From contig OY763407.1 of assembly GCA_963667425.1 (NCBI GenBank), positions 1,930,281 through 1,994,280 on the forward strand: a DNA stretch of 64,000 bases, written 5' to 3'. Below the pieces are notes generated by a model. It was not told the DNA's origin. It did not search any database and worked only from the letters and a program-made list of their open reading frames with translations. The first letter of the stretch is position 1; every line of letters begins with the position of its first letter. The stretch is from a bacterium (lineage in GTDB: Bacteria > UBP6 > UBA1177 > G963667425). Position numbers and translations under genes: made by a program. Below are positions 15,103-61,077 of this stretch, piece after piece.

Positions 15103-15112
15103 TGAGGTTAAG

Positions 15113-43521: not shown

Positions 43522-45960
43522 ATGAAAAGTATTTACCGCAAAAATAATAAGATTATTTTTATATTGTTTATTCTAATTGCGGTCATTACATTTATCTTTA
43601 TTGTATTTATGCATGAAAGCAAACTAAAAGAAGAAGTATCTGATACTATCAAAAAACATGCCAATGTTATAAAAACATCTTTATGGACTTATGAAAAAAA
43701 TGCTCATGTATCATATCTTGAACTTGCAATGAAGTCCAACAATTATGACGAACTGACGGTTTTTGATGATATGGGAAAAGTCTTTATTCAGTTGAAATCT
43801 GAAAAGCCATCTTTTTTAAAAGAATTTTTAATGTCTATTGGAATTATAAGTATAGAAAAAATAAAAACAGATATTATTTATGAGTCAAAAAAAGTAGGTG
43901 AACTTCAAATATTATGGAGAAATGAATCAGTTTTTTTCTATGCCTATATAGTTTTGTTTATCTCTCTTATTTTTCTGGCATTCTGGCTTTTTATGAGACT
44001 TTCTATAATTAACAGCTCCCTGTTAGTCCAATCGGAATTATTAAAAAAAGCTAAGAATACTGCGGAAGAAGCAAGTAAATCAAAAAGCTCATTTCTTGCC
44101 AATATGAGTCATGAAATACGAACACCTATGAATGCAATCATTGGTCTTAATCATCTTATTTCAAAGACAGAATTAACCAAAAAACAGCGGGATTATTTTT
44201 CAAAACTTGAAAGTTCAAGTCAACATCTATTACAAATAATCAACAACATACTTGATTTTTCCAAAATAGAAGCTGATAAAATGGAACTTGAAAATTCAAA
44301 TTTCTCTCTTAGCGAAATTATGGAAAACATCAAAAGTGTTCTTATATACAGGATTGAACAAAAAGGACTGAATTTTAATATAAAAATAGATAAAAATGTT
44401 CATGATATTTTTAAAGGCGACTCGCTAAGGCTTACTCAGATTCTTACCAACCTACTCAATAATGCCATAAAATTCACTGAGACTGGTAGTATTACAATTG
44501 AAATTAAAGAAAAAATCCTTGATTCCAACCATGCAGAACTGAAATTTTCTATAAAAGATTCAGGAATTGGAATTGATGCTGAAGGGCAGAAACACCTTTT
44601 TACCCCATTTGAACAGACAGATTCTTCAACAACACGAAAATATGGAGGAACAGGATTAGGACTAAGCATATGTAAAAGGCTTGTGGAAATGATGGGGGGA
44701 AATATCTCGGTTGACAGTTTTCCTGGAGTAGGATCTACATTTCATTTTATCATAATTTGCGAACAGATTTCTTTAGGCGTACTTCCCCCTGACATTTCTG
44801 ATAGCTTTGCACTTATTGTCGAAGATAACTATGCAGCACAAAACACACTTGGATCAATGCTTAAAGAGTTGACAATAAATTATGACGTGGCAATAAGCGG
44901 AGAAAGTGCATTGGAAATTCTTCTTGAAAATCCTGAAAAATACAAATTTTTGTTTCTGGACTGGCAGCTACCCGGCATGGATGGATTCAGCATGATAAGA
45001 GAACTGCGTAATAATAGTAAAATCTCAGAACCAATTACTTTTATAACAACAGCATATGGTACTTCAGAAGTTATACAACAGGCTAAAAATTTGAACACTG
45101 CGGGATTGCTCATAAAGCCTTTTTCGAAAGAAATAGTTATAGAATCAATAATATCAGCATTAGCGGCTTTTAAAAATGAAACATCAAAAAGTAATAAAAA
45201 ACCATCTGAACAGAAATCTTTAAATATAGACATTCTGCTTGCTGAAGATAATGCTATAAATCAACAGGTTCTTACAGAAATCTTAAAAGATTATGGATGT
45301 AATTCAACTGTAGCGGAAAATGGAAAAATTGCTGTAGAAAAAGCAACAAGTTACAAATATGATTTAATCATCATGGATCTTCAGATGCCTGTAATGGACG
45401 GTTTCGAAGCCACAGAACGGATAAGAAAACATGAAACAAGTCTTGGATATAGAACACATATAATTGCAATGAGTGCAAGTATTCTCAAAGATGATATGGA
45501 AAAAGCAAAACTTGCCGGAGTTGATGAGTACATAACAAAACCAGTAGACCCTAACAACTTATTTAATGTTTTAAATAAAATTTCACAAAACATTAAAAAG
45601 GAACTTTTTTCATCAAGTCAGGCAAAGTCTGTAAATATAGAAAAAGGTCTTGAAATAGTTATGGGAAATAAAAAACTGTACTACAAACTTCTCAATCAGT
45701 TTCATGAGCAACATAGAGATTCCGGCATTAGGTTAAATGCTGCCTTGAGAACAAAAGATTATGATGCTGCCAGAAAAATAGCTCATACAATTGCGGGAGT
45801 ATCATCAAATCTTGGTGCTGTAGATCTTTTTCAGACAGCTGTAAATCTGGAAATGGCTTTATATAAAAAACAGAGCGATGTGGAATTGATTGCCAGAAAA
45901 TTTCATCATGAACTTAACAAAACCATGGCTGAGATATTGATTTTAAATCAGACATTATAA
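43522..45960 (+). CDS. Hybrid sensor histidine kinase with two receiver domains and a C-terminal Hpt domain
   Basis: N-terminal TM helices flanking a ~120-aa extracytoplasmic segment; HisKA H-box (SHEIRTPMNAIIGL); HATPase_c (GTGLGLSICKRLVEMMGG); two REC domains with conserved Asp (FLDWQLPGMDG; IIMDLQMPVMDG); Hpt helix (AHTIAGVSSNLGA). Confidence 0.85.
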   Translation: MKSIYRKNNKIIFILFILIAVITFIFIVFMHESKLKEEVSDTIKKHANVIKTSLWTYEKNAHVSYLELAMKSNNYDELTVFDDMGKVFIQLKSEKPSFLKEFLMSIGIISIEKIKTDIIYESKKVGELQILWRNESVFFYAYIVLFISLIFLAFWLFMRLSIINSSLLVQSELLKKAKNTAEEASKSKSSFLANMSHEIRTPMNAIIGLNHLISKTELTKKQRDYFSKLESSSQHLLQIINNILDFSKIEADKMELENSNFSLSEIMENIKSVLIYRIEQKGLNFNIKIDKNVHDIFKGDSLRLTQILTNLLNNAIKFTETGSITIEIKEKILDSNHAELKFSIKDSGIGIDAEGQKHLFTPFEQTDSSTTRKYGGTGLGLSICKRLVEMMGGNISVDSFPGVGSTFHFIIICEQISLGVLPPDISDSFALIVEDNYAAQNTLGSMLKELTINYDVAISGESALEILLENPEKYKFLFLDWQLPGMDGFSMIRELRNNSKISEPITFITTAYGTSEVIQQAKNLNTAGLLIKPFSKEIVIESIISALAAFKNETSKSNKKPSEQKSLNIDILLAEDNAINQQVLTEILKDYGCNSTVAENGKIAVEKATSYKYDLIIMDLQMPVMDGFEATERIRKHETSLGYRTHIIAMSASILKDDMEKAKLAGVDEYITKPVDPNNLFNVLNKISQNIKKELFSSSQAKSVNIEKGLEIVMGNKKLYYKLLNQFHEQHRDSGIRLNAALRTKDYDAARKIAHTIAGVSSNLGAVDLFQTAVNLEMALYKKQSDVELIARKFHHELNKTMAEILILNQTL

Positions 45961-46470
45961 TCCTGAAACAATAAGCCACTTTCCATTTTCCTTAACAAAC
46001 TGAATTTGATTAACATCATCCACACTGTACCATTTTGGTTTTTCTTCTTCAAGAATTGTTTTTCCATCAGGTCCGAGTCTGCTATCAGACTGAAATCTTA
46101 AATCATAATAGTAGTAAACCAGAGCAAAACCTTTATCAGCGTCAACAGTCATATCCTTTATGATTATTGAAATATTTATCTTAAGAATTTCAGCATATTT
46201 TTCAGATTTCATAAAAGCTACTATTCCATCATAATCTACATCATCTGCTGCAATATCGGTACCGTTTTTATCATAGTATGAATCAGAAATAAGAGTTATT
46301 ATTTTTGCCGAATCTTTAGTCTTAACTGCATTGACATATTCATCAAAAACCTTTAAAACCTCTTTGTTATCAGGAGTATCTTCAATATCTGTTCCTTTAA
46401 TTTTTGATGGAGAACATGAAGCAAAACTGATAATAAGCGTCAACAGAAGGAGCATAAGAATTTTTCTCAT
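45955..46470 (-). CDS. Lipoprotein, last gene of the gsp operon (possible accessory or pilotin-like factor)
   Basis: Signal peptide plus lipobox (ISFASCSPS); 171 aa; 4-nt overlap with the upstream gspN-like gene. Function unknown. Confidence 0.5.
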   Translation of the reverse strand: MRKILMLLLLTLIISFASCSPSKIKGTDIEDTPDNKEVLKVFDEYVNAVKTKDSAKIITLISDSYYDKNGTDIAADDVDYDGIVAFMKSEKYAEILKINISIIIKDMTVDADKGFALVYYYYDLRFQSDSRLGPDGKTILEEEKPKWYSVDDVNQIQFVKENGKWLIVSGL

Positions 46471-47375
46471 TTAGACCTCTCTTTTTTTATAGTAGGATTT
46501 GTAAACATACCTTTTACACTAAATCTATATGTTAGATTCTGTTTCTCTTTTTCATCTTTAAATTGTTCAAGTGCAAGATCTATCGGAGAAAGTGAAGCAA
46601 TTGTTCCCTTTTCCTTTTCTATGACAGTAACTACTATTTCAGGTCTTGAAAAGTTAAGCCTTGTAGGATTTAGAACAACTTTGCCTGTTATATTTATTTT
46701 AAGAGCTCCAGATATATCAGCTTTTTTTATAGTAAGTTTGTTATCTTTTATTGATGCATGTAAGGATAAAGTTCCAAGTTTTAAAGGCTTAACAGTAAGA
46801 CCTTTAATTTTACCTCCAAAAACAAGATTATTTCCGGTAATATCTATCTCGCCATTCATTTTCTTTGATCTGCAAAAAGAAACAGTACCGTTTAAAGTAC
46901 CTTTACCCGCCATATCAGGAAGCAGCGTTTTAAGTAGCAGAAAAGAAACATCTTCAGCATCAACATCAAAACATACGGAAGCTTTTTCAACATCAACATT
47001 GCCGGCAAGTTCTCCGCCACTACTATTGAAATCGTTCAAAACAAAATCAACAGATTTAGACAAACCAAGCATAGTTCCTAATGAAGGAGAAATTTGTGCA
47101 CCTTGAACGCCAATAATCTTCTTACCGCTTTCCAGCAGAGAAAAATCATCAAAAGAAACAGTTTTTAAAGGAGAATAATAAGAATCTACAGCCTTAACTG
47201 AATAATCTGTTTTAAGCATTGCTTCATTTATTTTTGAAATAACAAAATCTCCAGGAAAAAACAATTTTAAAGCAATAATTATCCCGATCAGGGCAGCAAT
47301 CTCATAAAATATAATTTTTTTAATAACATTTATAATATTGGCAGGTGCTAAAAATTTTTTTAATCTCTTTTTCAT
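46467..47375 (-). CDS. T2SS GspN-like bitopic membrane protein (positional assignment)
   Basis: N-terminal TM helix (IIFYEIAALIGIIIALKLFF) followed by a periplasmic domain; position after the L/M-like genes. Confidence 0.4.
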   Translation of the reverse strand: MKKRLKKFLAPANIINVIKKIIFYEIAALIGIIIALKLFFPGDFVISKINEAMLKTDYSVKAVDSYYSPLKTVSFDDFSLLESGKKIIGVQGAQISPSLGTMLGLSKSVDFVLNDFNSSGGELAGNVDVEKASVCFDVDAEDVSFLLLKTLLPDMAGKGTLNGTVSFCRSKKMNGEIDITGNNLVFGGKIKGLTVKPLKLGTLSLHASIKDNKLTIKKADISGALKINITGKVVLNPTRLNFSRPEIVVTVIEKEKGTIASLSPIDLALEQFKDEKEKQNLTYRFSVKGMFTNPTIKKERSK

Positions 47376-47911
47376 TCTACAGCATCTCCTTTAAGGGTCG
47401 CAACAACAATTGCCGTATCATAATTTCGCTTATCATATCTCTTTTTTATGGAAACAGACTCAACAAAAACAAAACGATTATCATTTTCTATTGAATATAG
47501 AAACGTCATCAGCTCAGGAAGAGGAACCGCTCTCAAGGAAAGTTCTATTCTTTCTATTTTTGTTTTCCCCTTTATTACCGGTTTTAATTCTTTTATTGTA
47601 CTTATTTCAATATTGACCGACTCTTTTATGCCGCTAATATATGAATTAAGATTAGTATGATTGTCAGCAAGCTTTTTATAGACTCTTTCTTCCGCTTCTT
47701 TTGAACGATTGTAAAGATTTTTATAACCTGCAATTTTCTGAAGCATTTTTGTTTTGCTCCTTGCATCTGAAGTTGCAGTTTCCAGAGTTGAATCCATAAT
47801 ATACCAAACGAACATGGTCATTATAAGAAACATTACAAGGACAAAAGCTCCGAGCAGACCTTTTTCACGTTGACTTAAAGATGAAATATAGTTAGTTATT
47901 TTATCTTTCAT
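47372..47911 (-). CDS. T2SS GspM-like bitopic membrane protein
   Basis: 179 aa, single N-terminal TM helix (LLGAFVLVMFLIMTMFVWYI); size and topology match GspM; overlaps neighbouring genes. Confidence 0.45.
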   Translation of the reverse strand: MKDKITNYISSLSQREKGLLGAFVLVMFLIMTMFVWYIMDSTLETATSDARSKTKMLQKIAGYKNLYNRSKEAEERVYKKLADNHTNLNSYISGIKESVNIEISTIKELKPVIKGKTKIERIELSLRAVPLPELMTFLYSIENDNRFVFVESVSIKKRYDKRNYDTAIVVATLKGDAVE

Positions 47912-49329
47912 TAGTTTGCTCCCTTGGTTTTCTTGGATTTGTCTTCTTTTGCCTTTTTTTCAGATTCCGTAACAAAATCAAATCCTATAGAAAAATCATT
48001 TTTCCCTTTTATATTTCTGATTTGCCCCTTATTGAGGTTTTTAACATTTTTGTGTGCTTCAAGATTTTCAACCATCTTATTGAAATCTTCAAGTTTGTCA
48101 CAGTTTCCTACGAACCTTACCTTTCCATCTTTAAAAGAAAACTCTCTTATTTCAATTGAACTTTCTTCAAAAGTCAGAAGCGGAAAAAGTTCTTCCATAA
48201 CGTAAAGAGATGAATAAGGATAAACTTTTTTCTTTTCGTTAATTTCATCACCTTTAATTGTTTTCTCCATCACAGACACAGCCTGCCTCAGACTGGGATA
48301 TTCTTTTCCAAGAATTTCTTTGGTCAGAGTTTTTGTTCTACTGTCAAGTTTTTCTATTTCACTATTCACGTTGGATATTTTTATCTGCATAGAAATTATA
48401 AAAATGATAAAAGCGGAAAAAAGCATTATGGAAACAGCTATCATTTTCCTCTTGTAAAATTCAAAACCGCCTTTATACGCAAATTCATCTTTTGCAAAAT
48501 TTGCTATTGCACCTTTTTCTATTGCTGACGGCATTTCTGCAAGAACATCAGAAAGGAAAATGGTCTTTGCTTCTTTTAAAGATGTTTTTAAATAACTTTC
48601 AATGGCTGATGGAATCAATGCTGTAATAAAAAAGAGCGCTGGTTTGCCTGAGAAAAAATCTGAATATGTTGAAACAGTGTTTTCAATAACGCTATCTATA
48701 CTTTTTTTGATCAGAATTTCTTCTTCCGAACTGCTTTCAGCATCTATTTTTCCCAAAGAACCAAGCCAATCCTTATATTCCGCATCATCTGAAATCCTTG
48801 ATATGCTTCTAAGTTCAATTTCCTTTACACCATCTCCTGCAACTATCTGGGATTTGTCATCAAGCATTGCGGAATAATCATCTCCAATAATTACAGATTT
48901 TTCTCTTTCACCTGAAGAGATAAATTCATGTTCAGGAATAATACTTCTTATTTTAGAACTGTGGTTTATGAAGCGGTCAACAATTTCAGCAACATCGCTT
49001 TTTTTGACAATATACACTGTAACCTGTCCGTTTTCCTGCTGTTTTATATCAAAAATTATTTCCGCAGTTTTAAAATGCGTTATAGTTTCTATATCCTGCT
49101 CTATTATCATTTCAAGCTGATTTTTTTTAACAACAGGATACTGCTTTATAAAATATAAAACTTTTGATGCCGGAAAAAGTATGTCAATAAAATCGAACTC
49201 TTTTAAAAAATCTTCAAGACCGGCAAAATCAATTTCTTTTGAACCTAGAAAAGAGACTTTATTATAATCTTTTTCAAACTTATAAAAAACAGCCGAACTT
49301 TCACCCATCCTGCATGAAGCGTATTTCAT
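47911..49329 (-). CDS. T2SS GspL-like protein (cytoplasmic domain, TM helix, periplasmic domain)
   Basis: 472 aa; ~290-aa N-terminal cytoplasmic region, one TM helix (MIAVSIMLFSAFIIFIISM), ~160-aa periplasmic region; position between the K and M homologs. Confidence 0.45.
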   Translation of the reverse strand: MKYASCRMGESSAVFYKFEKDYNKVSFLGSKEIDFAGLEDFLKEFDFIDILFPASKVLYFIKQYPVVKKNQLEMIIEQDIETITHFKTAEIIFDIKQQENGQVTVYIVKKSDVAEIVDRFINHSSKIRSIIPEHEFISSGEREKSVIIGDDYSAMLDDKSQIVAGDGVKEIELRSISRISDDAEYKDWLGSLGKIDAESSSEEEILIKKSIDSVIENTVSTYSDFFSGKPALFFITALIPSAIESYLKTSLKEAKTIFLSDVLAEMPSAIEKGAIANFAKDEFAYKGGFEFYKRKMIAVSIMLFSAFIIFIISMQIKISNVNSEIEKLDSRTKTLTKEILGKEYPSLRQAVSVMEKTIKGDEINEKKKVYPYSSLYVMEELFPLLTFEESSIEIREFSFKDGKVRFVGNCDKLEDFNKMVENLEAHKNVKNLNKGQIRNIKGKNDFSIGFDFVTESEKKAKEDKSKKTKGAN

Positions 49330-49338
49330 CTAAACCTC

Positions 49339-50508
49339 TTACTGTTCACGGTAATAATATAGGTTACCTTCTCTATCAACAACCATTTCAATGGTACTTA
49401 CGACACCATCTTTTTCTCCTGTAGAGACAATTTTGTAAATTGAACCCTTAACCTCAAGTATATTTTTAACATTACTGTTTAATGTAATTCCTTCTTTAGA
49501 TACAACGGAAATAAAATTATCAACATTTGTAAAACCAGTTTTGGCTCTTTCTGCAAGAACTTTTCCCATAAGTTCTCTCATAGCATCTTCATTTGAGAAA
49601 ATAGACAGACTTTTATCTTCAGCATAAGCTCTGATAATAGCTTCAAGCATTTGATAATCTGCTTTGACAATGTTTATCTTACCAGTGGAATAAATAGTTA
49701 TATAAGGATAAAGTATCTTATATATAACATTGTTTACACCATAAACCATATAAAGCTCATCCAGCGTATCCAATCTTGCATTTTTTAATTTATATGAAGG
49801 AATAAAATCATCATAAAGAGGAGAATCTCCGCCAGCCATATCGATCCAGTCCTTTATATTAGCAATAAGTTCTTCTCTTGATACAAATTCTTTTCTATCT
49901 GTTCCTTCAACAAACACAAAATCATAAATATCATCACTAATCATGCTTTGAAGAATAGAAACAATTGAATCAGACATACTTGAATCGAGCATATTGAGAT
50001 TTATTTTCCCATCTTCATTTGCAAATGCCAAACTGAAATCGCCGGGAAATTCAAAGAAAGGATCACCTTCATCTTCCTTCTTAACAGCAGCAGAACCTTC
50101 ACCGCCTTTTTCTCCAGAGCTTTTCTCTTCAGCCTCTTCTTTTTTATAAATATCTGTAATATCCGCAAAAGGTCCGGCTGCTGTAAATTCTCTAAGTATT
50201 GCTGTATCAAAAGGAACTATATCCCAAATTTCAAAAGAGGCTGCACTATCACCCAAAAACTGTTTAAGAGAAGTTTCAAGCTGCTTCTGAAGGTCAAACA
50301 CGACAACTGCAAAGTTAGCTCCTGACTGAGCGAGAGCTCTGGCTTCAGCTTTTTTCTTGTACTGCATAGCAAGTTCATATTCGACTTTGGCATTGCTGTT
50401 CATATCAAAAGCTATTGGGAGCATTATAGCTATCATAACTATGACAATAAGCATTGCAATTCCTCTGTTCGAATTGATATTTTTAAACCATAAAAGCAGT
50501 TTCTTCAT
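49339..50508 (-). CDS. gspK: T2SS minor pseudopilin GspK-like
   Basis: N-terminus NRGIAMLIVIVMIAIMLPIAF lacks the Glu+5 of other pseudopilins, as in GspK; large periplasmic domain. Confidence 0.55.
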   Translation of the reverse strand: MKKLLLWFKNINSNRGIAMLIVIVMIAIMLPIAFDMNSNAKVEYELAMQYKKKAEARALAQSGANFAVVVFDLQKQLETSLKQFLGDSAASFEIWDIVPFDTAILREFTAAGPFADITDIYKKEEAEEKSSGEKGGEGSAAVKKEDEGDPFFEFPGDFSLAFANEDGKINLNMLDSSMSDSIVSILQSMISDDIYDFVFVEGTDRKEFVSREELIANIKDWIDMAGGDSPLYDDFIPSYKLKNARLDTLDELYMVYGVNNVIYKILYPYITIYSTGKINIVKADYQMLEAIIRAYAEDKSLSIFSNEDAMRELMGKVLAERAKTGFTNVDNFISVVSKEGITLNSNVKNILEVKGSIYKIVSTGEKDGVVSTIEMVVDREGNLYYYREQ

Positions 50509-51161: not shown

Positions 51162-51168
51162 AATTCTT

Positions 51169-51792: not shown

Positions 51793-52640
51793 TTTCCCTC
51801 CACATCTTCCGAGTATTCAAACATTTTCTTGAAATCTCCAAGATCTTCGGGAATATCGCCTCTTGTTATTTTTGTATCTGCAAAAAAATCACTTTCTATA
51901 TAAAACAGCGGATCACCATCTTCTTCAGCAATTGAAAGATAGAAAGGGGTTACTCTGCCTGTTGGAAAGATATAAATTACTGATTGAGCAAGTGTTTTTC
52001 TTTTAAGTTTTGCAAGCTCTTCTTCAGAAAGTTCTTCTTCATTTACATCTTCCTGAGATTCCAATAGCTCTTCTCTTATAAGAGGAACCGGCGTACTGTA
52101 AGTAAAAAATTTATCCCAGACAAGACCGGAAGGAAGTGTCATCTTTTTTGATTCAGGATTATATTCCGGTAGTAAAACCTCTTTTATACTTTTTTGCGGA
52201 GGAACAAAATTTTCCCAATTATAATAGTCATTCATCTCATCAGATTCAGATGCTTTTGTTTTCATGATATCATAAAAAGTGTTTGCACCAAGATGCGAAC
52301 CATCACCTTCAAAAGTGTCACTTTTATCTTCTATATCTTCAAGAAGTTTTTCATTACGCTTTAAAACTTTTTCAATATCATCACCGGGAATTAATGAAAA
52401 AGGAGTTTCAGTACTTTCGGCATAATATTCGCCATTTTTTATATCTACTATAATTCTGATATATTTCTGTTCTCTTATAGACTTAAGGAACATTTTTTTC
52501 AGCAAAATATTGAAGTTACCAAGTTCAGCACTGGCTCTTGATTTAGTAATGTTCATGACGCTAGGCACAGCAACACCAAGCAATAGTGCCACCAAGGCCA
52601 TAGCCACAAGCATTTCTATCATCGTAAACCCCTTTTTCAC
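51789..52640 (-). CDS. Prepilin-type pseudopilin (GspH-like by position; unusually long, 283 aa)
   Basis: MKK-G-FTMIEMLVAMALVA prepilin motif. Confidence 0.6.
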   Translation of the reverse strand: MKKGFTMIEMLVAMALVALLLGVAVPSVMNITKSRASAELGNFNILLKKMFLKSIREQKYIRIIVDIKNGEYYAESTETPFSLIPGDDIEKVLKRNEKLLEDIEDKSDTFEGDGSHLGANTFYDIMKTKASESDEMNDYYNWENFVPPQKSIKEVLLPEYNPESKKMTLPSGLVWDKFFTYSTPVPLIREELLESQEDVNEEELSEEELAKLKRKTLAQSVIYIFPTGRVTPFYLSIAEEDGDPLFYIESDFFADTKITRGDIPEDLGDFKKMFEYSEDVEGK

Positions 52641-52656
52641 AAAGAACTCCCTTTAA

Positions 52657-53097
52657 TTACTCTTCTTCTTCGTTTTCCCAGTTTGCAATATCATCACCGC
52701 CACCTTCTTTTCCATCCGGTCCAAAAGAATAGAGATCGTAACCATCTTCACCGTTTGAACCTGGAAAAATATAGATATAGCTGTTTTTCCATGGATCTAA
52801 AGGGACTTTTTTCCCATCAAGAATCTTTTCTTTTACAAGAGAATCAAGTCCTTCTTCTCCGGCAGGATATTTACCTTTTTCGCTCTTATAAAGATCAAGA
52901 GCATTCCCAAGAGTTTTTATATCCATATTAGCCTGTTTGATCTTAGATTTTTCAAGCTGTTTCATAAGACCAATACCGACACCGCCCATAACAACAGCAA
53001 GAATTGTTATGGCAATCATAATTTCCATAAGAGAAAAACCTTTTTCATTTCTTTTTTCCGAAAAAAGTTCTTTTAAGAAATTCTTAATAAAATTCAT
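52657..53097 (-). CDS. gspG: T2SS major pseudopilin GspG
   Basis: G-FSLMEIMIAITILAVVMG prepilin site plus the GspG-specific C-terminal signature (DPWKNSYIYIFPGSNGEDGYDLYSFGPDGKEGGGDDIANW); GGAGG Shine-Dalgarno upstream. Confidence 0.85.
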   Translation of the reverse strand: MNFIKNFLKELFSEKRNEKGFSLMEIMIAITILAVVMGGVGIGLMKQLEKSKIKQANMDIKTLGNALDLYKSEKGKYPAGEEGLDSLVKEKILDGKKVPLDPWKNSYIYIFPGSNGEDGYDLYSFGPDGKEGGGDDIANWENEEEE

Positions 53098-53110
53098 TGT
53101 TTCCTCCGTT

Positions 53111-54340
53111 TTATCCTATAGATTCATTAATTTTAAAAATAGGCACAATAATTGAGAAAATTATAAAACCAATAACCAGTCCAAGTGTCGCAAGCATTAT
53201 AGGCTCTATCATTGAAGTGAGTCTTTCAAGAGTATAGCGAACCTCTTTCTCATAAGAATCTGCTAATGTCTCAAGCATTGATTCAAGTTCACCGCTCTGC
53301 TCTCCAATACTTATCATACTTATAACTATCGGAGGGAATTCTCCAGACCTTTTAAGAGGAACCGAAATGGATTCACCCTCTTTTATATTTTCTTTTGCAA
53401 CAGCAATAGCAGTTTCAAGAACTTTGTTTCCAACAACTTTTTTAACTATGTCAAGTGCTTTAAGAATAGGAACACCGGCATTTAAAAGAGTTGCAAGTGT
53501 TTTTGCAAAACGGGAAATAGCTATCATTCTATTAATTCTGCCGAAAATCTTTACATTTATAAGAAACTTATCCCATCTGAAAAGACCTTTTTCCGTTTTT
53601 ATGTAACGTTTAAAAGAAATAAAGCCTCCGACAGCAACTATAATAACAAGCCACCAGTAATTAGAAAAGAATGAACTTAAACCTATCATAAATTTTGTCT
53701 GTATAGGCAGTTCCATATCCATGGAATCAAACATTTCGGAAAGTTTCGGAACAACGACAATAAACATTATAGAAATAACAATTATTGACATGACAAGCAG
53801 AATAATAGGATAAGTCATGGCAGAACGAACTCTGTTTTTAAGGTCCAGCTGCGATTCAAGAAAATCGGCAAGTCTCAAAAGAACTTTGTCTAATGCACCA
53901 CTTTCTTCACCTGCTGCTATCATATTGCAGTAAAGATCAGAAAATGTATCAGGAAAATCCTTGGCACTTCTTGAAAAGCTGTAACCTTCCTGAATTTTGT
54001 TTTTAACAAGCATCATCGTTTCTTTAAGATATGCATTCTGCTGTTGTTCTGCAACTGCTCCAAGCGCTTCAACAAGCGGAATACTTGCCTTCTGAAGTGT
54101 TGCGAGAAGTCTTGTCATGGAAGCGACTTCATCTAAAGAAGCTTTTTTTGAACGGAGAGAAAGAAGCATTTTAAGATTTGTAAGATCAAAAGCATCTTTT
54201 GATGATTTTTCCTTTATATCCGAAACAAAAAGTCCTTCTGACTGAAGTTTCATTTTCAAAGTATTTCTACTCTCACTTTCAGTAATACCTTTTATCTCTT
54301 TTCCGCTTTTATCAACTACTTTATATGAAAAAAGAGGCAT
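53111..54340 (-). CDS. gspF: T2SS inner-membrane platform protein GspF
   Basis: 409 aa, two repeated GspF/PilC-type cytoplasmic domains and three TM helices. Confidence 0.85.
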   Translation of the reverse strand: MPLFSYKVVDKSGKEIKGITESESRNTLKMKLQSEGLFVSDIKEKSSKDAFDLTNLKMLLSLRSKKASLDEVASMTRLLATLQKASIPLVEALGAVAEQQQNAYLKETMMLVKNKIQEGYSFSRSAKDFPDTFSDLYCNMIAAGEESGALDKVLLRLADFLESQLDLKNRVRSAMTYPIILLVMSIIVISIMFIVVVPKLSEMFDSMDMELPIQTKFMIGLSSFFSNYWWLVIIVAVGGFISFKRYIKTEKGLFRWDKFLINVKIFGRINRMIAISRFAKTLATLLNAGVPILKALDIVKKVVGNKVLETAIAVAKENIKEGESISVPLKRSGEFPPIVISMISIGEQSGELESMLETLADSYEKEVRYTLERLTSMIEPIMLATLGLVIGFIIFSIIVPIFKINESIG

Positions 54341-56031
54341 TATGAATCCTCCTGAGTAACACGAAGAATTTCATCAGGTGATGTTATTCCTTTTACCGCT
54401 TTTAAAGCACCATCTTCTCTTAAAGTCAGCATTCCATTTGAAGAAGCTATTTTCTTTATTTCAGAAGAACTGCTTCTGTTTACAACAGCACGTCTCATTT
54501 CATCATCTATTTTTATAAGCTCAAAAATACCTGTTCGTCCCTGATAACCTATACCTCGACACAAATCACACCCTTCGGCACGATAAAAAATATGAGATTC
54601 ATATTCTTGCGGATCCAGACCCAAATCCTCAAGTATAGCAGGTTCAGGATGATATGGTTTTTTACAGTGGGGACACAGTATTCTTACAAGTCGTTGCGCA
54701 AGAACACCAACAATAGTTGATGTCAGAAGAAATGGCTCAACACCCATATCAGTAAGCCTTGTAAAAACAGAAGGAGCATCATTTGTGTGTATAGTGCTCA
54801 AAACAAGGTGACCTGTAAGTGCAGCCTGTATTGCTATGTCAGCTGTATCTTTATCTCTGATTTCTCCAACCATTATAATATCAGGATCCTGACGAAGAAT
54901 AGATCTTAAACCATGAGCAAAAGTAAGCCCTATTTTACTGTTTATATGAATCTGATTTATACCTTTAAGCTGAATTTCAACAGGATCTTCTTCTGTTATG
55001 ATTTTTACATCAGGAGAATTTATTTCTGTTAAAGCGGAATAAAGAGTTGTCGTTTTTCCACTTCCGGTAGGACCGCAGACAAGAAATATTCCATGCTTTT
55101 TATTTATCAGCTCTCTCATTGTTTTAAGATCTCTGGATGTAAAGCCTGAAGCATCAAGAGAAAGTTTCTGTGATTTTTTATCCAGAATTCTGAGTACTAC
55201 AGACTCGCCATGAGTAGAAGGAAGAGTTGAAAGTCTTAAATCTATATCATTTCCGGCAATCCTTACTTTGATATTACCATCCTGAGGAAGTCTTTTTTCA
55301 GAAATATTAAGTTTACCCATAATTTTAAGCCTTGTAATAAGACCCGCCTGAGCAGCTTTAGGAACTCTCTGAAAAACATTAAGTTTGCCATCTTTTCTGA
55401 ATCTGACCAGAACTTCATCTTCAAAACTTTCAAAATGAATATCACTTACTCTGTCTTTTGCAGCTCTGGCAATAGTATTATTGACAAAACGGATAATTGG
55501 AGCTTCATCATTACTGTCAATAAGATCAGGAATTGATGTATCATCTTCGGCAGACATTTCCTTAAATTCTTCTGCATTAAGACCTTTGTCTGCAGTTTCG
55601 ACACGACTATAGAGATTGTTAATGATATCCATTATCTTAATATCATTTACAAGAAAAGGAACCGCTGTTTTTCCATAAATAAGATAAAGCTGATTAAAAA
55701 GAAGAGAAATCTCATTGCTGGAAGTAACCACAATCAGTTTGTTGTTCTCTTCACATAAAGGAATTGCCATATACCGTTTTGCAAGAAAAATAGGAAACTG
55801 CTCTAGCATAACAAGATCTGCCTTTTCAAGATCCTTTTCATCAAAAAACTTAAAACCGGATTGTTCCTGAAGAGAATTAAAGAGATTTTCAATAGTCAGA
55901 GATGTTTCTTCCCTAAGTATCGAACCTATTTTCTGGTTCTGATTCTTAGACTGAGAAACAAGAGCATCACCAAGCTCTTTTTCTGTTATAAAACCTTTTT
56001 CCAGAAGTATTTCGCCTATTTTCTTTTTCAT
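54340..56031 (-). CDS. gspE: T2SS ATPase GspE with N-terminal MshEN-like domain
   Basis: Walker A (GPTGSGKTT), Asp/His boxes, tetracysteine zinc motif (CPHCKK ... CDLCRGIGYQGR); N-terminus KIGEILLEKGFITEKELGDALVSQ. Start set at ATG 56031, which overlaps the gspD stop. Confidence 0.9.
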   Translation of the reverse strand: MKKKIGEILLEKGFITEKELGDALVSQSKNQNQKIGSILREETSLTIENLFNSLQEQSGFKFFDEKDLEKADLVMLEQFPIFLAKRYMAIPLCEENNKLIVVTSSNEISLLFNQLYLIYGKTAVPFLVNDIKIMDIINNLYSRVETADKGLNAEEFKEMSAEDDTSIPDLIDSNDEAPIIRFVNNTIARAAKDRVSDIHFESFEDEVLVRFRKDGKLNVFQRVPKAAQAGLITRLKIMGKLNISEKRLPQDGNIKVRIAGNDIDLRLSTLPSTHGESVVLRILDKKSQKLSLDASGFTSRDLKTMRELINKKHGIFLVCGPTGSGKTTTLYSALTEINSPDVKIITEEDPVEIQLKGINQIHINSKIGLTFAHGLRSILRQDPDIIMVGEIRDKDTADIAIQAALTGHLVLSTIHTNDAPSVFTRLTDMGVEPFLLTSTIVGVLAQRLVRILCPHCKKPYHPEPAILEDLGLDPQEYESHIFYRAEGCDLCRGIGYQGRTGIFELIKIDDEMRRAVVNRSSSSEIKKIASSNGMLTLREDGALKAVKGITSPDEILRVTQEDS

Positions 56032-58553
56032 CAATACTCCTCATCATCGATAGCAGGAACTTTTTCCTTTGCAGAATCAAATATTTCATCCTTAATCTGG
56101 GTATCCTGCATACTTCCATCAGGAGTTATTATTTTTGCATCTATTTTACTGTTTATATGCTGTTCAATAAGTTCATCTTCTCTTTTCGATTCAGAGTTTA
56201 TTTTCTGGAAAAGAGAAAGCAGCATTCCTCTTTTCTTTTCCATAAATATGTTATTCTGGACATCTTTTATTTTACCGTAAAACTTCTTTGCGAATTCTTC
56301 TCTCTCTTTTGTCTTTTTCTGATAAATTCTGTCAAAATCTATTTTACTTTCAATAATATGAGGAGTGAGAATAAGAAGAAGATTCGATTTCTTATTTGTT
56401 TTTGTAGTGTATTTAAAAAGATTTCCAAGAACAGGAATATCGCCAAGTAAAGGAATTTTGTTTTCATATTCAGAAACGTAATCCTTCATAAGACCGCCGA
56501 TAACTATCGTCTGCTCATTTTCAGCATTTACAATAGTTTTAGCAGATCTTTTAGTAGTAATATAACCGTAGCTAGTCTGGGCACCAAGTTCTGTAACCTC
56601 CTGCTGAACATCAAGTGTCATATAACCACCGTCATTGATTTGAGGTTTTATTTTAAGTTTAAGCGCAACATCTTCTCTTGTATAAGTTACAGTACTTCCT
56701 GCCGTGCTGTTAATAATCGTACCTGAAGGGAAAGGAACTGTTTCACCTACTGTGATTTCAGCTTCTTCGTTATCTGTGGTAAGAATATGAGGAGTCGACA
56801 TAACATTAACGTTAGTATCACTTTTAGCTGCATTAAGAAGCATACCAACAGAAGGAACTCCACCAAAAACACCAATACCAGGAATATCTTCTGTACTGCT
56901 TACCGTTGAAGAACTAAGCATACCTGAAACAAAACCAGGAGTTGGAGTTGTAAGAGCCTTTCCAAAGAATATAGGCACTTTTTCTCCATTAATGTTTGCA
57001 TTATAACCACCGGCAGCATAAGCAAGACCATATTCTGAGTCTTCCTGCACATTTACTTCCATAATTATTGCTTCAACAAAAACCTGTTTTCTTCTCTGAT
57101 CCAGCTCCTTTATAACATTTTTCAGACTTTTATAATCCCTAAGAGAAGCAACAACAACCAGAGAATTTGTAGATTCATCAGCAGAAAGGCTGACCTCACC
57201 TTCAAAAATGGAAGAACCTTTTGAATTTTTCTGATTTCCTTTATATTGAGCAACCTTTGAAAGAGTTGTTACAAGATCTTTTGCTTTGGCATTCTGAAGA
57301 GGAACAACATGAACTTCTCCCTCACCCTCAACTTGAGTATCAAGTTTAGAAAGAATTGTTATTGCAAGTTTATAGTTTGCCTTTGTTGTAAGAAAGACAA
57401 GCTGTTCACTTCTGTCATCAGCAACAATATGAATAAAGTTTGCAACATCATCATCAGAAGATGCAGTAATATCTTTTTTATTTCTAGCTTTATTGTTATT
57501 GTTTGCATTAACCCCTGCTTTATTTGATATTTCAGCAAGAGAAGGGACTTCAGCACTGTTTTTGTTTCTCTTGTTCATCTGGGAAGCAAGCGGCTTAAAA
57601 ATTTCTTCCAGTGTTTTCTTGGCATCTGTGGGGGAAACATGTTTAAGCTTTACAAAGAAAAATTCAGGAATTTCTGTTTCCGGCCTTGGTTTATCAAGAT
57701 CTGCAACAACTTTAAGCATTTTTCTAATATTTGCGGCATAATCAACAATAAGAATAGTCTTGTCATCAAAAACCAGAAGACTTCCACCCTTGCCTCTGAA
57801 AATATTAAGAACTTTCTGCATCTCCTTAGCATCTGTATTTGCGACTCTTATTATTGTTGCAACCATTGTAAAAGTGTAAGGTATAGCATTTTCTTTACCA
57901 TAATATGGAATATTAGTTGAAACCGCATCTTTCTCGGACATAACGATAGTATATTTCCCATCTGGAACCACGGTTACATTGTTTACAGAAAGAACAGTAA
58001 GAAATGTTTTATATGCATCTTTTATAGTAACGGAAGAAGGAGACATTATTGTGACTTTTGATTTAGCAAGACGTTCCTGAAGAATAAAATTCTTTTTCAT
58101 TTTTTCGCTAAACCATTTTATAACATCAAGAAGAGGTGTTTCCTGAAAATCAAGCCAGACTTTAGCATCATCAGGAAGAGGTTTGTCAGTGTGAACAGAT
58201 TCAATTTTTATTGTATCTGAAGCTGTAGTTTTTCTTGAAGAATCATATTCCGGAACAGAAGGAACTGCAGGAGTTGTTGTAGCTCTGTTAACAACTTTTG
58301 CCTGCGGAGCTTTTACTTCTTGTTTTACAGAATCATCCTTTTTTTCCTCTTTATTGGAATCTTCCTCTTTCTTTTCACTATCTTCATCCTTTTTTTTATC
58401 TTTTTCAGGCATTTTCTTTAATTTTGTATCACCCAGTCTTGCCTTTGTAAGAGGAAATTTTATCTTACTCGGATCTAGTTTCATCTGAGCATCCAGGACC
58501 AGAGGTAAAACAAAAATAATTAAAAACAAAATCGAGAGCAATCTGCTTTTCAT
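56031..58553 (-). CDS. gspD: T2SS outer-membrane secretin GspD
   Basis: Signal peptide; N0/N1-type domains; C-terminal secretin domain (IPLLGDIPVLGNLFKYTTKTNKKSNLLLILTPHII); ~100-aa charged low-complexity insertion after the signal peptide. Confidence 0.9.
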   Translation of the reverse strand: MKSRLLSILFLIIFVLPLVLDAQMKLDPSKIKFPLTKARLGDTKLKKMPEKDKKKDEDSEKKEEDSNKEEKKDDSVKQEVKAPQAKVVNRATTTPAVPSVPEYDSSRKTTASDTIKIESVHTDKPLPDDAKVWLDFQETPLLDVIKWFSEKMKKNFILQERLAKSKVTIMSPSSVTIKDAYKTFLTVLSVNNVTVVPDGKYTIVMSEKDAVSTNIPYYGKENAIPYTFTMVATIIRVANTDAKEMQKVLNIFRGKGGSLLVFDDKTILIVDYAANIRKMLKVVADLDKPRPETEIPEFFFVKLKHVSPTDAKKTLEEIFKPLASQMNKRNKNSAEVPSLAEISNKAGVNANNNNKARNKKDITASSDDDVANFIHIVADDRSEQLVFLTTKANYKLAITILSKLDTQVEGEGEVHVVPLQNAKAKDLVTTLSKVAQYKGNQKNSKGSSIFEGEVSLSADESTNSLVVVASLRDYKSLKNVIKELDQRRKQVFVEAIIMEVNVQEDSEYGLAYAAGGYNANINGEKVPIFFGKALTTPTPGFVSGMLSSSTVSSTEDIPGIGVFGGVPSVGMLLNAAKSDTNVNVMSTPHILTTDNEEAEITVGETVPFPSGTIINSTAGSTVTYTREDVALKLKIKPQINDGGYMTLDVQQEVTELGAQTSYGYITTKRSAKTIVNAENEQTIVIGGLMKDYVSEYENKIPLLGDIPVLGNLFKYTTKTNKKSNLLLILTPHIIESKIDFDRIYQKKTKEREEFAKKFYGKIKDVQNNIFMEKKRGMLLSLFQKINSESKREDELIEQHINSKIDAKIITPDGSMQDTQIKDEIFDSAKEKVPAIDDEEY

Positions 58554-58593
58554 CTTTTCAAACTCCGTTTATATAAAATTTAAATTCTTCAAA

Positions 58594-59565
58594 TTATTCT
58601 ATGGTATACTCCATAGATTCAGGTTTTCCGCCTCTTACAATATTAAGAGAAATCTTATCGGCATTTCTAAGCCTCTGATAAGCTTCAAGAGCTTTATCAG
58701 GACTCGAAATATCAATTCCATTTATGTTTTTTATGACATCTCCATTCTGAAGTCCTATTTGACTGTAAAGGCTGTTCGGCCTTATCGAAAAAATCTTAAA
58801 ACCAGCTTCGCCTCTGGCAGGAACAATTCTGGCCTGTCTTGCAAGAACGTTAAGATTTGTTGTCGCTTTCATTATTTCGCTTCTTGAAACGACATAACTA
58901 TGATCATCTATTTTTCTAATATTTACATCCTGTTGAGTCGGCATAGCATTATTTATTGGTGCTTTTACAGCGACATCTTTATTTTTCGGCCTATTGGTTA
59001 TTGCATCACCAAGACACCTTACACCTGAAGGTGTTTCAAAAACAACTATATTTCTATCAACATAAAGAAGTTTGGTTCCTTTATCAACCTCTTCCCCAAC
59101 AGAAATTACAGTGGGAGGAATCTCATCTTTTGTTGCTTTTTGTTCAACAGAAATGGAAGAATACTCCACAGGAATTGCAGGAACAATAGCCGTAAGCTTA
59201 ACACCATCCAAAGCCTGACATTTATCAGGATTGTTAAGATAATAGTTGATATCAGTAGGCTCGTTCTTAGATTCTTTTACAAGAGCTCCGTCAGTATTTA
59301 TTCCAGGTACAACAACAGAAAGATCTATCTGGCGCTGTTCCAGATCAAAAATATTATGCTCTGAAACAGATGTTTTATCTTCTCCAAAGAAAACTATTTT
59401 TTTATTATTAATATTACCTTCTGTTTTTTCGTAATAATCTTTTCCAAGCGGAACATAAATAATGTTTTTACCAACAGCAACTGAAATTGCAAAACCTGTC
59501 AATGCAAAGAAAAGAAAGGCAAGTGAAACAAAAACAGCGATATCAAAAAGAGTTCTATTTCTCAT
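58594..59565 (-). CDS. gspC: T2SS GspC-like protein with C-terminal PDZ domain
   Basis: Start at ATG 59565 with GGAAGGAG upstream; N-terminal TM helix (IAVFVSLAFLFFALTGFAI); C-terminal PDZ-like segment (GFKIFSIRPNSLYSQIGLQNGDVIKNINGIDI); first gene of the operon, immediately upstream of gspD. Confidence 0.6.
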   Translation of the reverse strand: MRNRTLFDIAVFVSLAFLFFALTGFAISVAVGKNIIYVPLGKDYYEKTEGNINNKKIVFFGEDKTSVSEHNIFDLEQRQIDLSVVVPGINTDGALVKESKNEPTDINYYLNNPDKCQALDGVKLTAIVPAIPVEYSSISVEQKATKDEIPPTVISVGEEVDKGTKLLYVDRNIVVFETPSGVRCLGDAITNRPKNKDVAVKAPINNAMPTQQDVNIRKIDDHSYVVSRSEIMKATTNLNVLARQARIVPARGEAGFKIFSIRPNSLYSQIGLQNGDVIKNINGIDISSPDKALEAYQRLRNADKISLNIVRGGKPESMEYTIE

Positions 59566-59674
59566 CGGCTCCTTCCAGAAAAATTTCAACGATGCCGATA
59601 TAAGCAAAAAAAATGCCAAAACCCTTTTCTTTAAATATCAACGGGTTACAAAACCGTTTTTGTATGCCAAAAAA

Positions 59675-59704
59675 TCATTTTGTCATATTGACATGACAAA
59701 ATGA
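59675..59704. promoter_or_regulatory. Perfect 12-bp inverted repeat (TCATTTTGTCAT-N6-ATGACAAAATGA), candidate operator in the divergent gspC / radical-SAM intergenic region
   Basis: Read directly from the sequence; it contains a TTGACA hexamer at 59688..59693 and lies between two divergently transcribed operons. Confidence 0.4.
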
Positions 59705-61075: not shown

Positions 61076-61077
61076 AA

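What the first reader, a model, noticed from the sequence alone, without database searches (positions are those of the whole stretch)
45955..59565. Complete, tightly coupled 13-gene T2SS (gsp-like) operon with atypical components
One minus-strand operon carries gspC (PDZ), gspD (secretin), gspE (ATPase), gspF, gspG (with the diagnostic DPW...DL.S.G.DG..GG...DI.NW tail), three prepilin-type pseudopilins, a GspK-like gene, L/M/N-like bitopic proteins and a terminal lipoprotein. Most junctions overlap by 1-4 nt, implying translational coupling. Several components are longer than textbook sizes (H-like 283 aa, I-like 207 aa, K-like 389 aa, D 840 aa). The L/M/N and terminal lipoprotein calls rest on topology and position only, so these may be divergent or novel accessory components. 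Likely substrates are the many acidic Cys-rich lipoproteins in the window.
Basis: partly seen in the sequence, partly recalled or inferred. Interest (0 to 1): 0.6.

Follow-up and report, generated by a model that had tools for sequence, protein, structure and literature searches.

The report
Type II secretion operon plus lipoprotein
This is a genuine, complete-looking type II protein-secretion operon of the Leptospira/deltaproteobacterial style from an uncultured bacterium; it is ordinary except for a conserved extra lipoprotein gene at its end that no described secretion system has.

Summary
Thirteen minus-strand genes (45955-59565) sit head to tail. Seven of the 12 junctions overlap by 1-4 nt and the other five are gaps of 7-40 nt.

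Profile searches identify GspC (delta-type), D, E, F, G, J, K, M and N (Leptospira-type). H and I are prepilin-type proteins whose best hits, below threshold, are GspH and GspI. The 472-aa "L-like" protein has no sequence-family hit. Its predicted structure matches cytoplasmic EpsL/GspL/PilM at the N-terminus and periplasmic EpsL/PulL at the C-terminus, so it is GspL.

Nothing points to a type IV pilus, Tad or competence system. No prepilin peptidase lies in the window.

The whole gene order recurs in about 30 genomes assembled from metagenomes (candidate phylum UBP6 and unclassified "bacterium" records). The longer-than-textbook sizes are therefore a lineage trait.

The 13th gene is the one new element. 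It encodes a 171-aa lipoprotein with an NTF2-like fold and an invariant acidic loop. It follows gspN directly in 23 of 27 related loci. It has no Pfam family and no known T2SS counterpart.

The claim that acidic Cys-rich lipoproteins are the substrates stays speculative, with only weak support from gene context.

Verdict: a new member of a known kind, of modest interest.

The parts
58594..59565 (-). gspC (323 aa from ATG 59565): one TM segment, an HR region and a C-terminal PDZ domain
   Evidence: NF041515 GspC_delta scores 185.4 bits against a cut-off of 150. PDZ_2 matches residues 273-337 of the 341-aa ORF. A Shine-Dalgarno sequence (GGAAGGAG) precedes ATG 59565.
56031..58553 (-). gspD secretin (840 aa): Sec signal peptide, N0, three Secretin_N domains and a secretin domain. 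The N-terminal ~120 aa (Lys/Glu-rich) and the C-terminal ~60 aa are poorly conserved.
   Evidence: TIGR02517 scores 454 bits against a cut-off of 351. PF00263, PF03958 (x3) and PF21305 also match.
54340..56034 (-). gspE ATPase (564 aa) with an N-terminal MshEN-type domain
   Evidence: TIGR02533 GspE scores 614.6 bits (cut-off 630), ahead of PilB at 575.9 (cut-off 676). PF00437 scores 457 bits, PF05157 MshEN 26.7 bits, and NF053729 35.4 bits against a cut-off of 38.
53111..54340 (-). gspF inner-membrane platform (409 aa)
   Evidence: TIGR02120 scores 423.9 bits against a cut-off of 424. The PilC models score 337 and 318 against cut-offs of 700.
52657..53097 (-). gspG major pseudopilin (146 aa)
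   Evidence: TIGR01710 scores 101.5 bits against a cut-off of 88.9. PF08334 T2SSG and N_methyl also match. The C-terminal DPW...DG..GG..DI.NW motif is present.
51789..52640 (-). gspH-like minor pseudopilin (283 aa)
   Evidence: The N_methyl motif is present. TIGR01708 gspH is the best hit but is below threshold (45.8 bits, cut-off 80). It is the top hit in all 14 family members scanned. The globular part finds nothing in a PDB profile search.
51169..51792 (-). gspI-like minor pseudopilin (207 aa) with a Ser/Thr-rich C-terminal tail
   Evidence: The N_methyl motif is present. The window protein has no GspI hit itself, but 8 of 13 orthologues weakly hit TIGR01707 gspI and XpsI. Its position between H and J is conserved.
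50508..51161 (-). gspJ minor pseudopilin (217 aa)
   Evidence: PF11612 T2SSJ scores 37.7 bits against a cut-off of 28. TIGR01711 gives E 9.5e-8.
49339..50508 (-). gspK minor pseudopilin (389 aa), lacking Glu+5
   Evidence: PF21687 T2SSK_1st scores 30.9 bits against a cut-off of 26.2. NF037980 GspK gives E 3.9e-19. The N-terminus reads RG|IAMLI.
47911..49329 (-). gspL (472 aa): cytoplasmic actin-like domain, one TM segment (293-311), a long helix and a periplasmic ferredoxin-like domain
   Evidence: The protein itself has no family hit. The AlphaFold2 model has pLDDT 81. Foldseek matches PilM 5eou, cyto-EpsL 1yf5, GspL 4pht and PulL 5tkw (E 1e-9 to 4e-11). The periplasmic domains of EpsL (2w7v) and PulL (5hl8) match with TM-score 0.76. 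Of 25 family members, 23 weakly hit PilN and 4 hit GspL_C.
47372..47911 (-). gspM (179 aa)
   Evidence: PF10741 T2SSM_b scores 27 bits against a cut-off of 21.7. PF04612 and NF040576 are below threshold.
46467..47375 (-). gspN (302 aa), Leptospira type
   Evidence: TIGR04411 T2SS_GspN_Lepto scores 80.1 bits against a cut-off of 50 and aligns over its full length.
45955..46470 (-). Terminal lipoprotein (171 aa, Cys19): NTF2-like fold with an invariant loop YYDxNGTDxxxDDVDY. It is an accessory gene of this T2SS operon found only in this lineage.
59675..59704 (.). Perfect 12-bp inverted repeat (TCATTTTGTCAT-N6-ATGACAAAATGA) in the gspC upstream region. It is a candidate operator.
   Evidence: The function is inferred only.

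Best explanation
The locus is one operon that encodes a type II secretion system of the Leptospira/deltaproteobacterial style.

The expected mechanism, inferred from what is known of the families:
- GspD forms the outer-membrane secretin channel.
- GspC (HR and PDZ domains) links the secretin to the inner-membrane platform of GspF, GspL and GspM, probably with GspN.
- The cytoplasmic ATPase GspE docks on the actin-like domain of GspL. It drives assembly of a short pseudopilus made of GspG, capped by GspH, I, J and K.
- The pseudopilus pushes folded periplasmic proteins out through the secretin.
- The prepilin peptidase that must process G to K is encoded elsewhere in the genome.

The 13th gene encodes a small NTF2-like lipoprotein. 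It is translationally coupled to gspN and co-inherited with the operon throughout this uncultured lineage. It is most likely a periplasm-facing, membrane-anchored accessory subunit of the machine. Its exact role is not established. Candidate roles are help with secretin assembly or anchoring, or binding of a cation or ligand through its conserved acidic loop.

Shown here: gene identities, gene order, gene coupling, conservation and predicted folds. Inferred: secretion activity, the substrates and the lipoprotein's role.
For: - Family assignments above curated cut-offs: C, D, G, J, K, M and N. E and F each score best against the T2SS model.
- GspL identified from its predicted structure.
- H and I are supported at family level.
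- All genes are on one strand. Seven junctions overlap by 1-4 nt, the largest gap is 40 nt, and terminator-like sites are not above the shuffled expectation (5 found, 7.6 expected).
- The order C-D-E-F-G-H-I-J-K-L-M-N-lipoprotein recurs in loci from about 30 metagenome-assembled genomes, with 25-69% identity per protein.
- A Myxococcales MAG shares the K-L-M-N module.
- The lipoprotein follows gspN directly in 23 of 27 loci and lies on the same strand 6-7 kb downstream in two more.
- T2SS outside Proteobacteria, with gspO as an unlinked 'loner', is established in the literature (PMC6668835).
Against: - No prepilin peptidase lies in the 64-kb window.
- GspE (614.6 vs 630.25) and GspF (423.9 vs 424) fall just under their equivalog cut-offs.
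- H and I are assigned only from hits below threshold and from position.
- There is no experimental evidence of secretion in this lineage.
- For the lipoprotein: distant relatives in Myxococcota-like contigs are not next to T2SS genes. The Myxococcales T2SS locus has no homologue. Two related loci have none in the sequence available downstream of gspN. The fold is generic.
Confidence: 0.9

Rival explanations
1. The locus builds a type IVa pilus, an MSHA-like pilus or a competence pilus, not a secretion pseudopilus.
For: GspE has a PilB/MshE-style N-terminal MshEN domain and scores 576 bits on the PilB model. The secretin scores 180 bits on PilQ. [quoted passage not shown]
Against: - The T2SS models score higher for D, E, F and G.
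- The T2SS-specific components GspC (HR and PDZ), GspJ, GspK, GspM and GspN are present above cut-off.
- PilM and PilN are fused as in GspL.
- The operon has no PilT/PilU retraction ATPase and no PilO/PilP.
- The major subunit carries the T2SSG domain and the GspG C-terminal motif.
Confidence: 0.05
2. The terminal lipoprotein is a pilotin-like factor. It would be an outer-membrane lipoprotein that binds the C-terminal region of GspD and guides or stabilises secretin assembly, replacing GspS or AspS, which the locus lacks.
For: - It is a small lipoprotein with Ser at +2, not the Asp that retains lipoproteins in the inner membrane in E. coli.
- It is encoded in the operon and conserved with it.
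- No other pilotin candidate lies in the operon.
- GspD stays conserved for about 45 residues beyond the Pfam secretin domain.
- NTF2-like cones have a cavity that could hold a helix (inference).
Against: - In rumen relatives whose gspC-F are not upstream, the gene stays with gspG-N and not with gspD.
- It is coupled to gspN, not gspD.
- The last ~60 residues of GspD are poorly conserved.
- Sister-family members occur away from T2SS genes.
Confidence: 0.25
3. The terminal lipoprotein is not part of the machine. It would be either a co-transcribed cargo or surface protein, or a passenger gene that happens to sit at the operon's end.
For: - In L019 and L025, cargo-like genes (acidic Cys-rich lipoproteins and a TSP3-repeat protein) lie between gspN and this gene.
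- It is absent from the sequence available downstream of gspN in L012 and L021.
- The related family in Myxococcota-like contigs has a different context, beside PilZ genes.
Against: - Adjacency is retained across proteins that have diverged to 35-45% identity.
- Its start overlaps the gspN stop by 4 nt in the window and in several relatives.
- Invariant residues point to a conserved molecular function.
- Flanking genes outside the operon are not conserved, whereas this one is.
Confidence: 0.2

Closest known systems
Leptospira/deltaproteobacterial-type T2SS (the systems behind NCBIfam NF041515 GspC_delta and TIGR04411 T2SS_GspN_Lepto, e.g. the L. interrogans gsp cluster with GspE LIC_11571)
   Same: Both have the delta-type GspC and the Leptospira-type GspN, each above cut-off here. 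Both have a GspE with an N-terminal MshEN domain (PMC12943098) and the full C-N gene set. The K-L-M-N order is shared with a Myxococcales MAG.
   Different: - The host is an uncultured lineage (UBP6-like and unclassified MAGs).
- GspL is too diverged for sequence profiles.
- H, I and K are longer.
- An NTF2-like lipoprotein gene is appended after gspN. It has no homologue in the Myxococcales locus examined.
I could not inspect the Leptospira locus itself.
Classical proteobacterial T2SS (Pul, Eps, Xcp, Out, Gsp)
   Same: The components are the same, gene for gene (C, D, E, F, G, H, I, J, K, L, M, N), in nearly the same order. GspG carries its C-terminal motif, GspK lacks Glu5, and GspL has the two-domain architecture matched by EpsL and PulL structures.
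   Different: - There is no gspO in the operon and no GspS/AspS pilotin or GspAB.
- E and F score at or below the equivalog cut-offs.
- M matches subtype b.
- The secretin has low-complexity N- and C-terminal extensions.
- GspE carries an MshEN-type N-domain.
Type IVa pilus machinery (PilB, C, M, N, O, P, Q, with PilT)
   Same: The ATPase, platform, secretin and prepilin-type subunits are homologous. The GspL N-domain resembles PilM and its C-terminal part resembles PilN.
   Different: The locus has no PilT, no separate PilM/N/O/P and no PilA-type major pilin. It does have GspC, J, K, M and N.
NTF2-like (SnoaL / DUF4440 / CaMKII-hub) superfamily, including the NTF2 domains of the periplasmic L,D-carboxypeptidases Csd6, Pgp2 and Bd1075
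   Different: Sequence identity is 7-19%. The protein is lipid-anchored and stands alone. It has its own invariant acidic loop and an N-terminal IKGTDI strand. It passes no Pfam family at threshold. No NTF2-like protein is described as a T2SS component (search of the held library: no paper with pilotin, NTF2 and type II secretion).

Membership tests
Type II secretion system (Gsp) | Outer-membrane secretin of the GspD type (N0, N1-N3 and secretin domains) | tested here: met
   TIGR02517 scores 454 bits against a cut-off of 351. PF21305 N0, PF03958 (x3) and PF00263 also match.
Type II secretion system (Gsp) | GspE-type assembly ATPase | tested here: inconclusive
   TIGR02533 is the best-scoring model (614.6 bits) but is under its equivalog cut-off of 630.25. 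PilB scores 575.9 against a cut-off of 675.65.
Type II secretion system (Gsp) | GspF polytopic platform protein | tested here: inconclusive
   TIGR02120 scores 423.9 bits against a cut-off of 424, which is 0.1 bit short. The PilC models score far below their cut-offs.
Type II secretion system (Gsp) | Major pseudopilin GspG | tested here: met
   TIGR01710 scores 101.5 bits against a cut-off of 88.85, and PF08334 matches.
Type II secretion system (Gsp) | Minor pseudopilins GspJ and GspK | tested here: met
   PF11612 scores 37.7 bits (cut-off 28) and PF21687 scores 30.9 bits (cut-off 26.2). K lacks Glu+5.
Type II secretion system (Gsp) | Minor pseudopilins GspH and GspI | tested here: inconclusive
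   Both have prepilin N-termini in the right positions. gspH is the best hit for all 14 H-like family members scanned, and gspI/XpsI for 8 of 13 I-like members. All these hits are below cut-off. The PDB profile search matched only the N-terminal helix.
Type II secretion system (Gsp) | GspC (T2SS-specific link between secretin and platform) | tested here: met
   NF041515 GspC_delta scores 185.4 bits against a cut-off of 150.
Type II secretion system (Gsp) | GspL: cytoplasmic actin-like domain, one TM segment and a periplasmic ferredoxin-like domain | tested here: met
   This is met by predicted structure only. The model has pLDDT 81 and both domains match solved EpsL, GspL and PulL domains. No sequence family passes threshold.
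Type II secretion system (Gsp) | GspM and GspN | tested here: met
   PF10741 scores 27 bits (cut-off 21.7) and TIGR04411 scores 80.1 bits (cut-off 50).
Type II secretion system (Gsp) | Prepilin peptidase (GspO/PilD) in the genome | not testable with these tools
   None is in the operon flanks or among the multi-TM ORFs of the 64-kb window. The rest of the ~2.95-Mb genome was not available. gspO is commonly unlinked (PMC6668835).
Type II secretion system (Gsp) | Secretes folded periplasmic proteins across the outer membrane | not testable with these tools
   This needs a secretome comparison of wild type against gspD or gspE mutants.
T2SS pilotins (GspS/PulS/OutS, AspS/GspS-beta) | Small outer-membrane lipoprotein | tested here: inconclusive
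   The lipobox with Cys19 and Ser at +2 is present. Outer-membrane localisation is inferred, not shown.
T2SS pilotins (GspS/PulS/OutS, AspS/GspS-beta) | Sequence or fold homology to known pilotins | tested here: not met
T2SS pilotins (GspS/PulS/OutS, AspS/GspS-beta) | Binds the secretin C-terminal S-domain and is needed for secretin targeting | not testable with these tools
NTF2-like superfamily | Alpha+beta cone fold: three helices packed on a curved beta-sheet | tested here: met

The most novel reading that the evidence does not exclude
The NTF2-like lipoprotein would be a previously unrecognised structural or assembly component of a T2SS, for example a new class of pilotin or outer-membrane anchor that acts with GspN. 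This machine would then specialise in exporting the lineage's abundant acidic, Cys-rich lipoproteins to the cell surface. Such lipoprotein genes sit inside or directly against the operon in several relatives.
Probability: 0.25. Interest if true: 0.55.

Novelty: new member of a known kind. Interest (0 to 1): 0.3.

Why it matters
- It documents a full T2SS in an uncultured, mostly gut and anaerobic-digester lineage (UBP6-like) that has no cultured members and no functional data. The lineage is therefore diderm and able to secrete proteins.
- It shows that the 'hypothetical' L gene is a real GspL that only structure prediction can recognise. That is useful for annotation pipelines.
- It points to one concrete unknown, a conserved NTF2-like lipoprotein coupled to gspN. 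If that protein proves to be part of the machine, it would add a new accessory class to T2SS biology.

Otherwise the locus is a normal instance of a well-understood system.

Tried and rejected
- Sequence-profile identification of the L protein against Pfam, NCBIfam and PDB failed for the window protein. It was resolved only by structure prediction.
- Profile searches of the H-like and I-like families against PDB sequences matched only the pilin N-terminal helix.
- Exact look-ups of window proteins to recover the source record found nothing on record. The cluster look-up gave only 'NCBI/ENA, 2.95-Mb contig' with no name. The organism is therefore placed only through its relatives.
- The promoter and terminator scan was uninformative: 50 promoter-like sites against 49 expected, and 5 terminator-like sites against 7.6 expected.
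- A prepilin peptidase was looked for in the flanks by Pfam and in the other window ORFs by TM count. The only 8-TM candidate (17800-18615) looks like a UbiA-type prenyltransferase from its N-terminal sequence (my reading, no family search). None was found.
- Flanking synteny outside the operon is not conserved, so it gave no help with substrates.
- I tested whether acidic Cys-rich lipoprotein genes are enriched next to the operon. About 9 of 27 loci have one as an immediate neighbour. The background density is high, about 7 per 64 kb in the window. My rough expectation from that density is about 6 of 27, so the excess is not convincing.
- The AlphaFold-database fold library (afdb50) was unavailable.
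- Rfam and tRNA scans of the window found nothing.

Full report
**Observation**

The region 45955-59619 holds 13 consecutive minus-strand ORFs. A GGAAGGAG Shine-Dalgarno sequence lies 4 nt upstream, while the longer TTG-initiated ORF is a mechanical artefact.

Seven of the 12 junctions overlap by 1 or 4 nt: D/E, E/F, H/I, J/K, L/M, M/N and N/lipoprotein. The other five are gaps of 7-40 nt. Terminator-like sites inside the region are not above the shuffled expectation. The layout fits a single, partly translationally coupled operon. Opposite-strand ORFs in the region, such as 46621-47106, are shadow ORFs. G+C is about 32-36% here, as in the rest of the window.

**Identity of the genes**

Pfam and NCBIfam gave these results:

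| Gene | Best model(s) | Score vs cut-off |
|---|---|---|
| gspC | NF041515 GspC_delta | 185 vs 150 |
| gspD | TIGR02517, with N0, three Secretin_N and secretin domains | 454 vs 351 |
| gspE | TIGR02533 (PilB model: 575.9 vs 675.65) | 614.6 vs 630.25 |
| gspF | TIGR02120 (PilC models: about 320-340 vs 700) | 423.9 vs 424 |
| gspG | TIGR01710 | 101.5 vs 88.85 |
| gspJ | PF11612 | 37.7 vs 28 |
| gspK | PF21687 (NF037980 gives E 4e-19) | 30.9 vs 26.2 |
| gspM | PF10741, subtype b | 27 vs 21.7 |
| gspN | TIGR04411 T2SS_GspN_Lepto | 80.1 vs 50 |

M and N are therefore true homologues and not merely look-alikes in topology.

The H-like and I-like proteins carry prepilin N-termini. For H, gspH is the best hit in all 14 orthologues scanned, though below threshold. 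For I, 8 of 13 orthologues weakly hit gspI and XpsI. Their globular parts are too diverged for a PDB profile search. K lacks Glu+5, as GspK proteins do.

**The L-like protein**

The 472-aa protein has no family hit itself. It has only 25 detectable homologues in a 5.8-billion-protein index, all from uncultured bacteria. Of those family members, 23 of 25 weakly hit PilN and 4 hit GspL_C.

An AlphaFold2 model built on that alignment has pLDDT 81. It shows an N-terminal actin-like domain, one TM helix, a long helix and a C-terminal alpha/beta domain. In Foldseek against the PDB:
- The N-domain matches PilM (5eou), cyto-EpsL (1yf5, 1w97), GspL in complex with GspE (4pht) and PulL (5tkw).
- The C-domain matches the periplasmic domains of EpsL (2w7v, TM-score 0.76) and PulL (5hl8).

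That is the GspL architecture.

**Is it a T2SS?**

GspC, J, K, M and N are specific to T2SS. PilM and PilN are fused as in GspL. The operon has no PilT and no PilO/PilP.

The one missing piece is the prepilin peptidase. It is not in the flanks or among the multi-TM ORFs of the window. This gene is treated as an unlinked 'loner' in T2SS models (PMC6668835), and the rest of the genome could not be examined.

**Relatives and conservation**

A scan of one genome per GTDB species with the GspL alignment returned 31 loci from MAGs. They are labelled UBP6 (UBA1177, UBA1196, UBA1209), 'bacterium' (many from rumen or digesters), 'uncultured Spirochaetales' and one Sumerlaeota. Two distant Myxococcota loci also came back.

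Where the sequence reaches far enough, the order C-D-E-F-G-H-I-J-K-L-M-N-lipoprotein is preserved, at 25-69% identity per protein. Protein lengths are also preserved: H about 270-280, I about 210-250, J 217, K about 395-411, D about 840-890 and L about 470-540 aa. The 'atypical' sizes are thus a lineage trait. In GspD the extra length lies largely in poorly conserved N- and C-terminal extensions.

In ten mostly rumen-derived MAGs, gspC-F are not within the ~6 kb upstream of gspG, so the operon is split there. A Myxococcales MAG shares K-L-M-N in order. This fits the delta-type GspC and Leptospira-type GspN assignments.

**The terminal lipoprotein**

This is the only unassigned gene. It has a lipobox (Cys19) and no Pfam or NCBIfam family. 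Across near and distant homologues, eight residues are invariant: C19, I24, T27, Y65, D67, G70, D76 and D77. They lie in an N-terminal IKGTDI strand and in an acidic loop, YYDxNGTDxxxDDVDY.

It follows gspN directly in 23 of 27 lineage loci that have downstream sequence. It lies 6-7 kb downstream on the same strand in two loci (L019, L025) and is absent from the available sequence in two (L012, L021).

An exhaustive HMM search found 555 cluster representatives at E <= 1e-3. Only about a dozen are of the T2SS-linked type. Five distant members were examined in context, one from Nannocystis pusilla and the rest from metagenome or MAG contigs. None lies next to T2SS genes. The Myxococcales T2SS locus has no homologue.

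The linkage to the T2SS is therefore specific to this lineage but strong. I read the protein as a membrane-anchored periplasmic accessory of the machine. A pilotin-like role is possible but unsupported by fold. The fact that the gene travels with gspG-N and not with gspD argues weakly against it.

**Substrates**

The window does hold several acidic, Cys-rich lipoprotein genes, including an RCC1-repeat protein and an Lcl_C-domain protein. None is syntenic with the operon in relatives.

However, in L019 the three genes inserted between gspN and the lipoprotein gene are two acidic Cys-rich lipoproteins (18 and 17 Cys) and a 1378-aa protein with thrombospondin type 3 repeats. Homologues lie just upstream of gspG in L002, just after gspN in L021, and between gspN and the lipoprotein gene in L025. 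About 9 of 27 loci have such a gene as an immediate neighbour. Given how common these genes are in the window, my rough chance expectation is about 6, so the excess is not convincing. The substrate idea remains a hypothesis with weak contextual support.

**Comparison and novelty**

The closest known systems are the Leptospira/deltaproteobacterial-type T2SS, for which NCBI already curates GspC and GspN models and whose GspE carries an MshEN domain (PMC12943098). The locus also matches the classical Gsp system component by component.

It differs in four ways: the host lineage, a GspL invisible to sequence profiles, longer minor pseudopilins, and the appended NTF2-like lipoprotein. The operon is a new member of a known kind. 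The lipoprotein is a candidate new accessory.

Interest is modest (0.3). A specialist would not be surprised by the T2SS itself and would be mildly interested in the lipoprotein and in the lineage.

Noticed in passing
window 59675-59704: A perfect 12-bp inverted repeat (TCATTTTGTCAT-N6-ATGACAAAATGA) lies in the divergent intergenic region between gspC and the radical-SAM gene. It is a candidate operator for a dimeric regulator.
   Followed up: partly
window 54340-56034 (GspE residues 5-58): GspE carries the tandem 24-residue MshEN c-di-GMP-binding motif. The first copy (KIGEILLEKGFITEKELGDALVSQ) fits the published relaxed pattern. The second deviates at three positions in the window protein but is intact in most relatives (motif from PMC5013675). 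The secretion ATPase may be controlled by c-di-GMP in this lineage, perhaps less so in this genome.
   Followed up: partly
L034 9390-10423; L037 7413-8591; L038 2687-3737; also L035 and L036: Distant relatives of the terminal lipoprotein (one from Nannocystis pusilla, the others from metagenome or MAG contigs) are not near T2SS genes. In three of five contexts they sit divergently next to a small (~105-aa) PilZ-domain gene. In the other two a PilZ gene lies 3-5 kb away.
   Followed up: partly
L019 13471-20788; L025 13466-19400; L002 5-1861; L021 8685-10511: In some relatives, large acidic Cys-rich lipoprotein genes are inserted inside the T2SS operon or abut it. In L019 they are paralogues of 517 and 536 aa with Asp/Ser-rich linkers after the lipobox, accompanied by a 1378-aa TSP3-repeat protein. 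They are possible cargo.
   Followed up: partly
window 2147-3010, 4884-7433, 15050-15598, 22677-23399, 23420-24118, 61837-63147: The window has an unusually high density of acidic lipoproteins, most of them Cys-rich (pI about 4.0-4.5; up to 33 Cys). One has RCC1 repeats and one an Lcl_C domain. Several have no family.
   Followed up: partly
L012, L015, L018, L021-L023, L025-L028 (mostly rumen and gut MAGs): In these relatives gspC-D-E-F are not within the ~6 kb upstream of gspG, so the T2SS genes are split into at least two loci there. The lipoprotein gene, where present, stays with gspG-N.
   Followed up: no
window 43510-45960 (+): A hybrid histidine kinase (HisKA, HATPase_c, two receiver domains and Hpt) converges on the operon. 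Its 3' end overlaps the 3' end of the lipoprotein gene by 6 nt.
   Followed up: no
window 59828-61833 (+): A gene pair diverges from gspC: a radical-SAM protein with an HHH motif, followed by a DUF4130 protein. A 74%-identical copy of the first gene lies upstream of gspG in L023.
   Followed up: no
window 46467-47375 compared with relatives: GspN is 302 aa in the window but 326-510 aa in related MAGs, so it is markedly shorter here.
   Followed up: no
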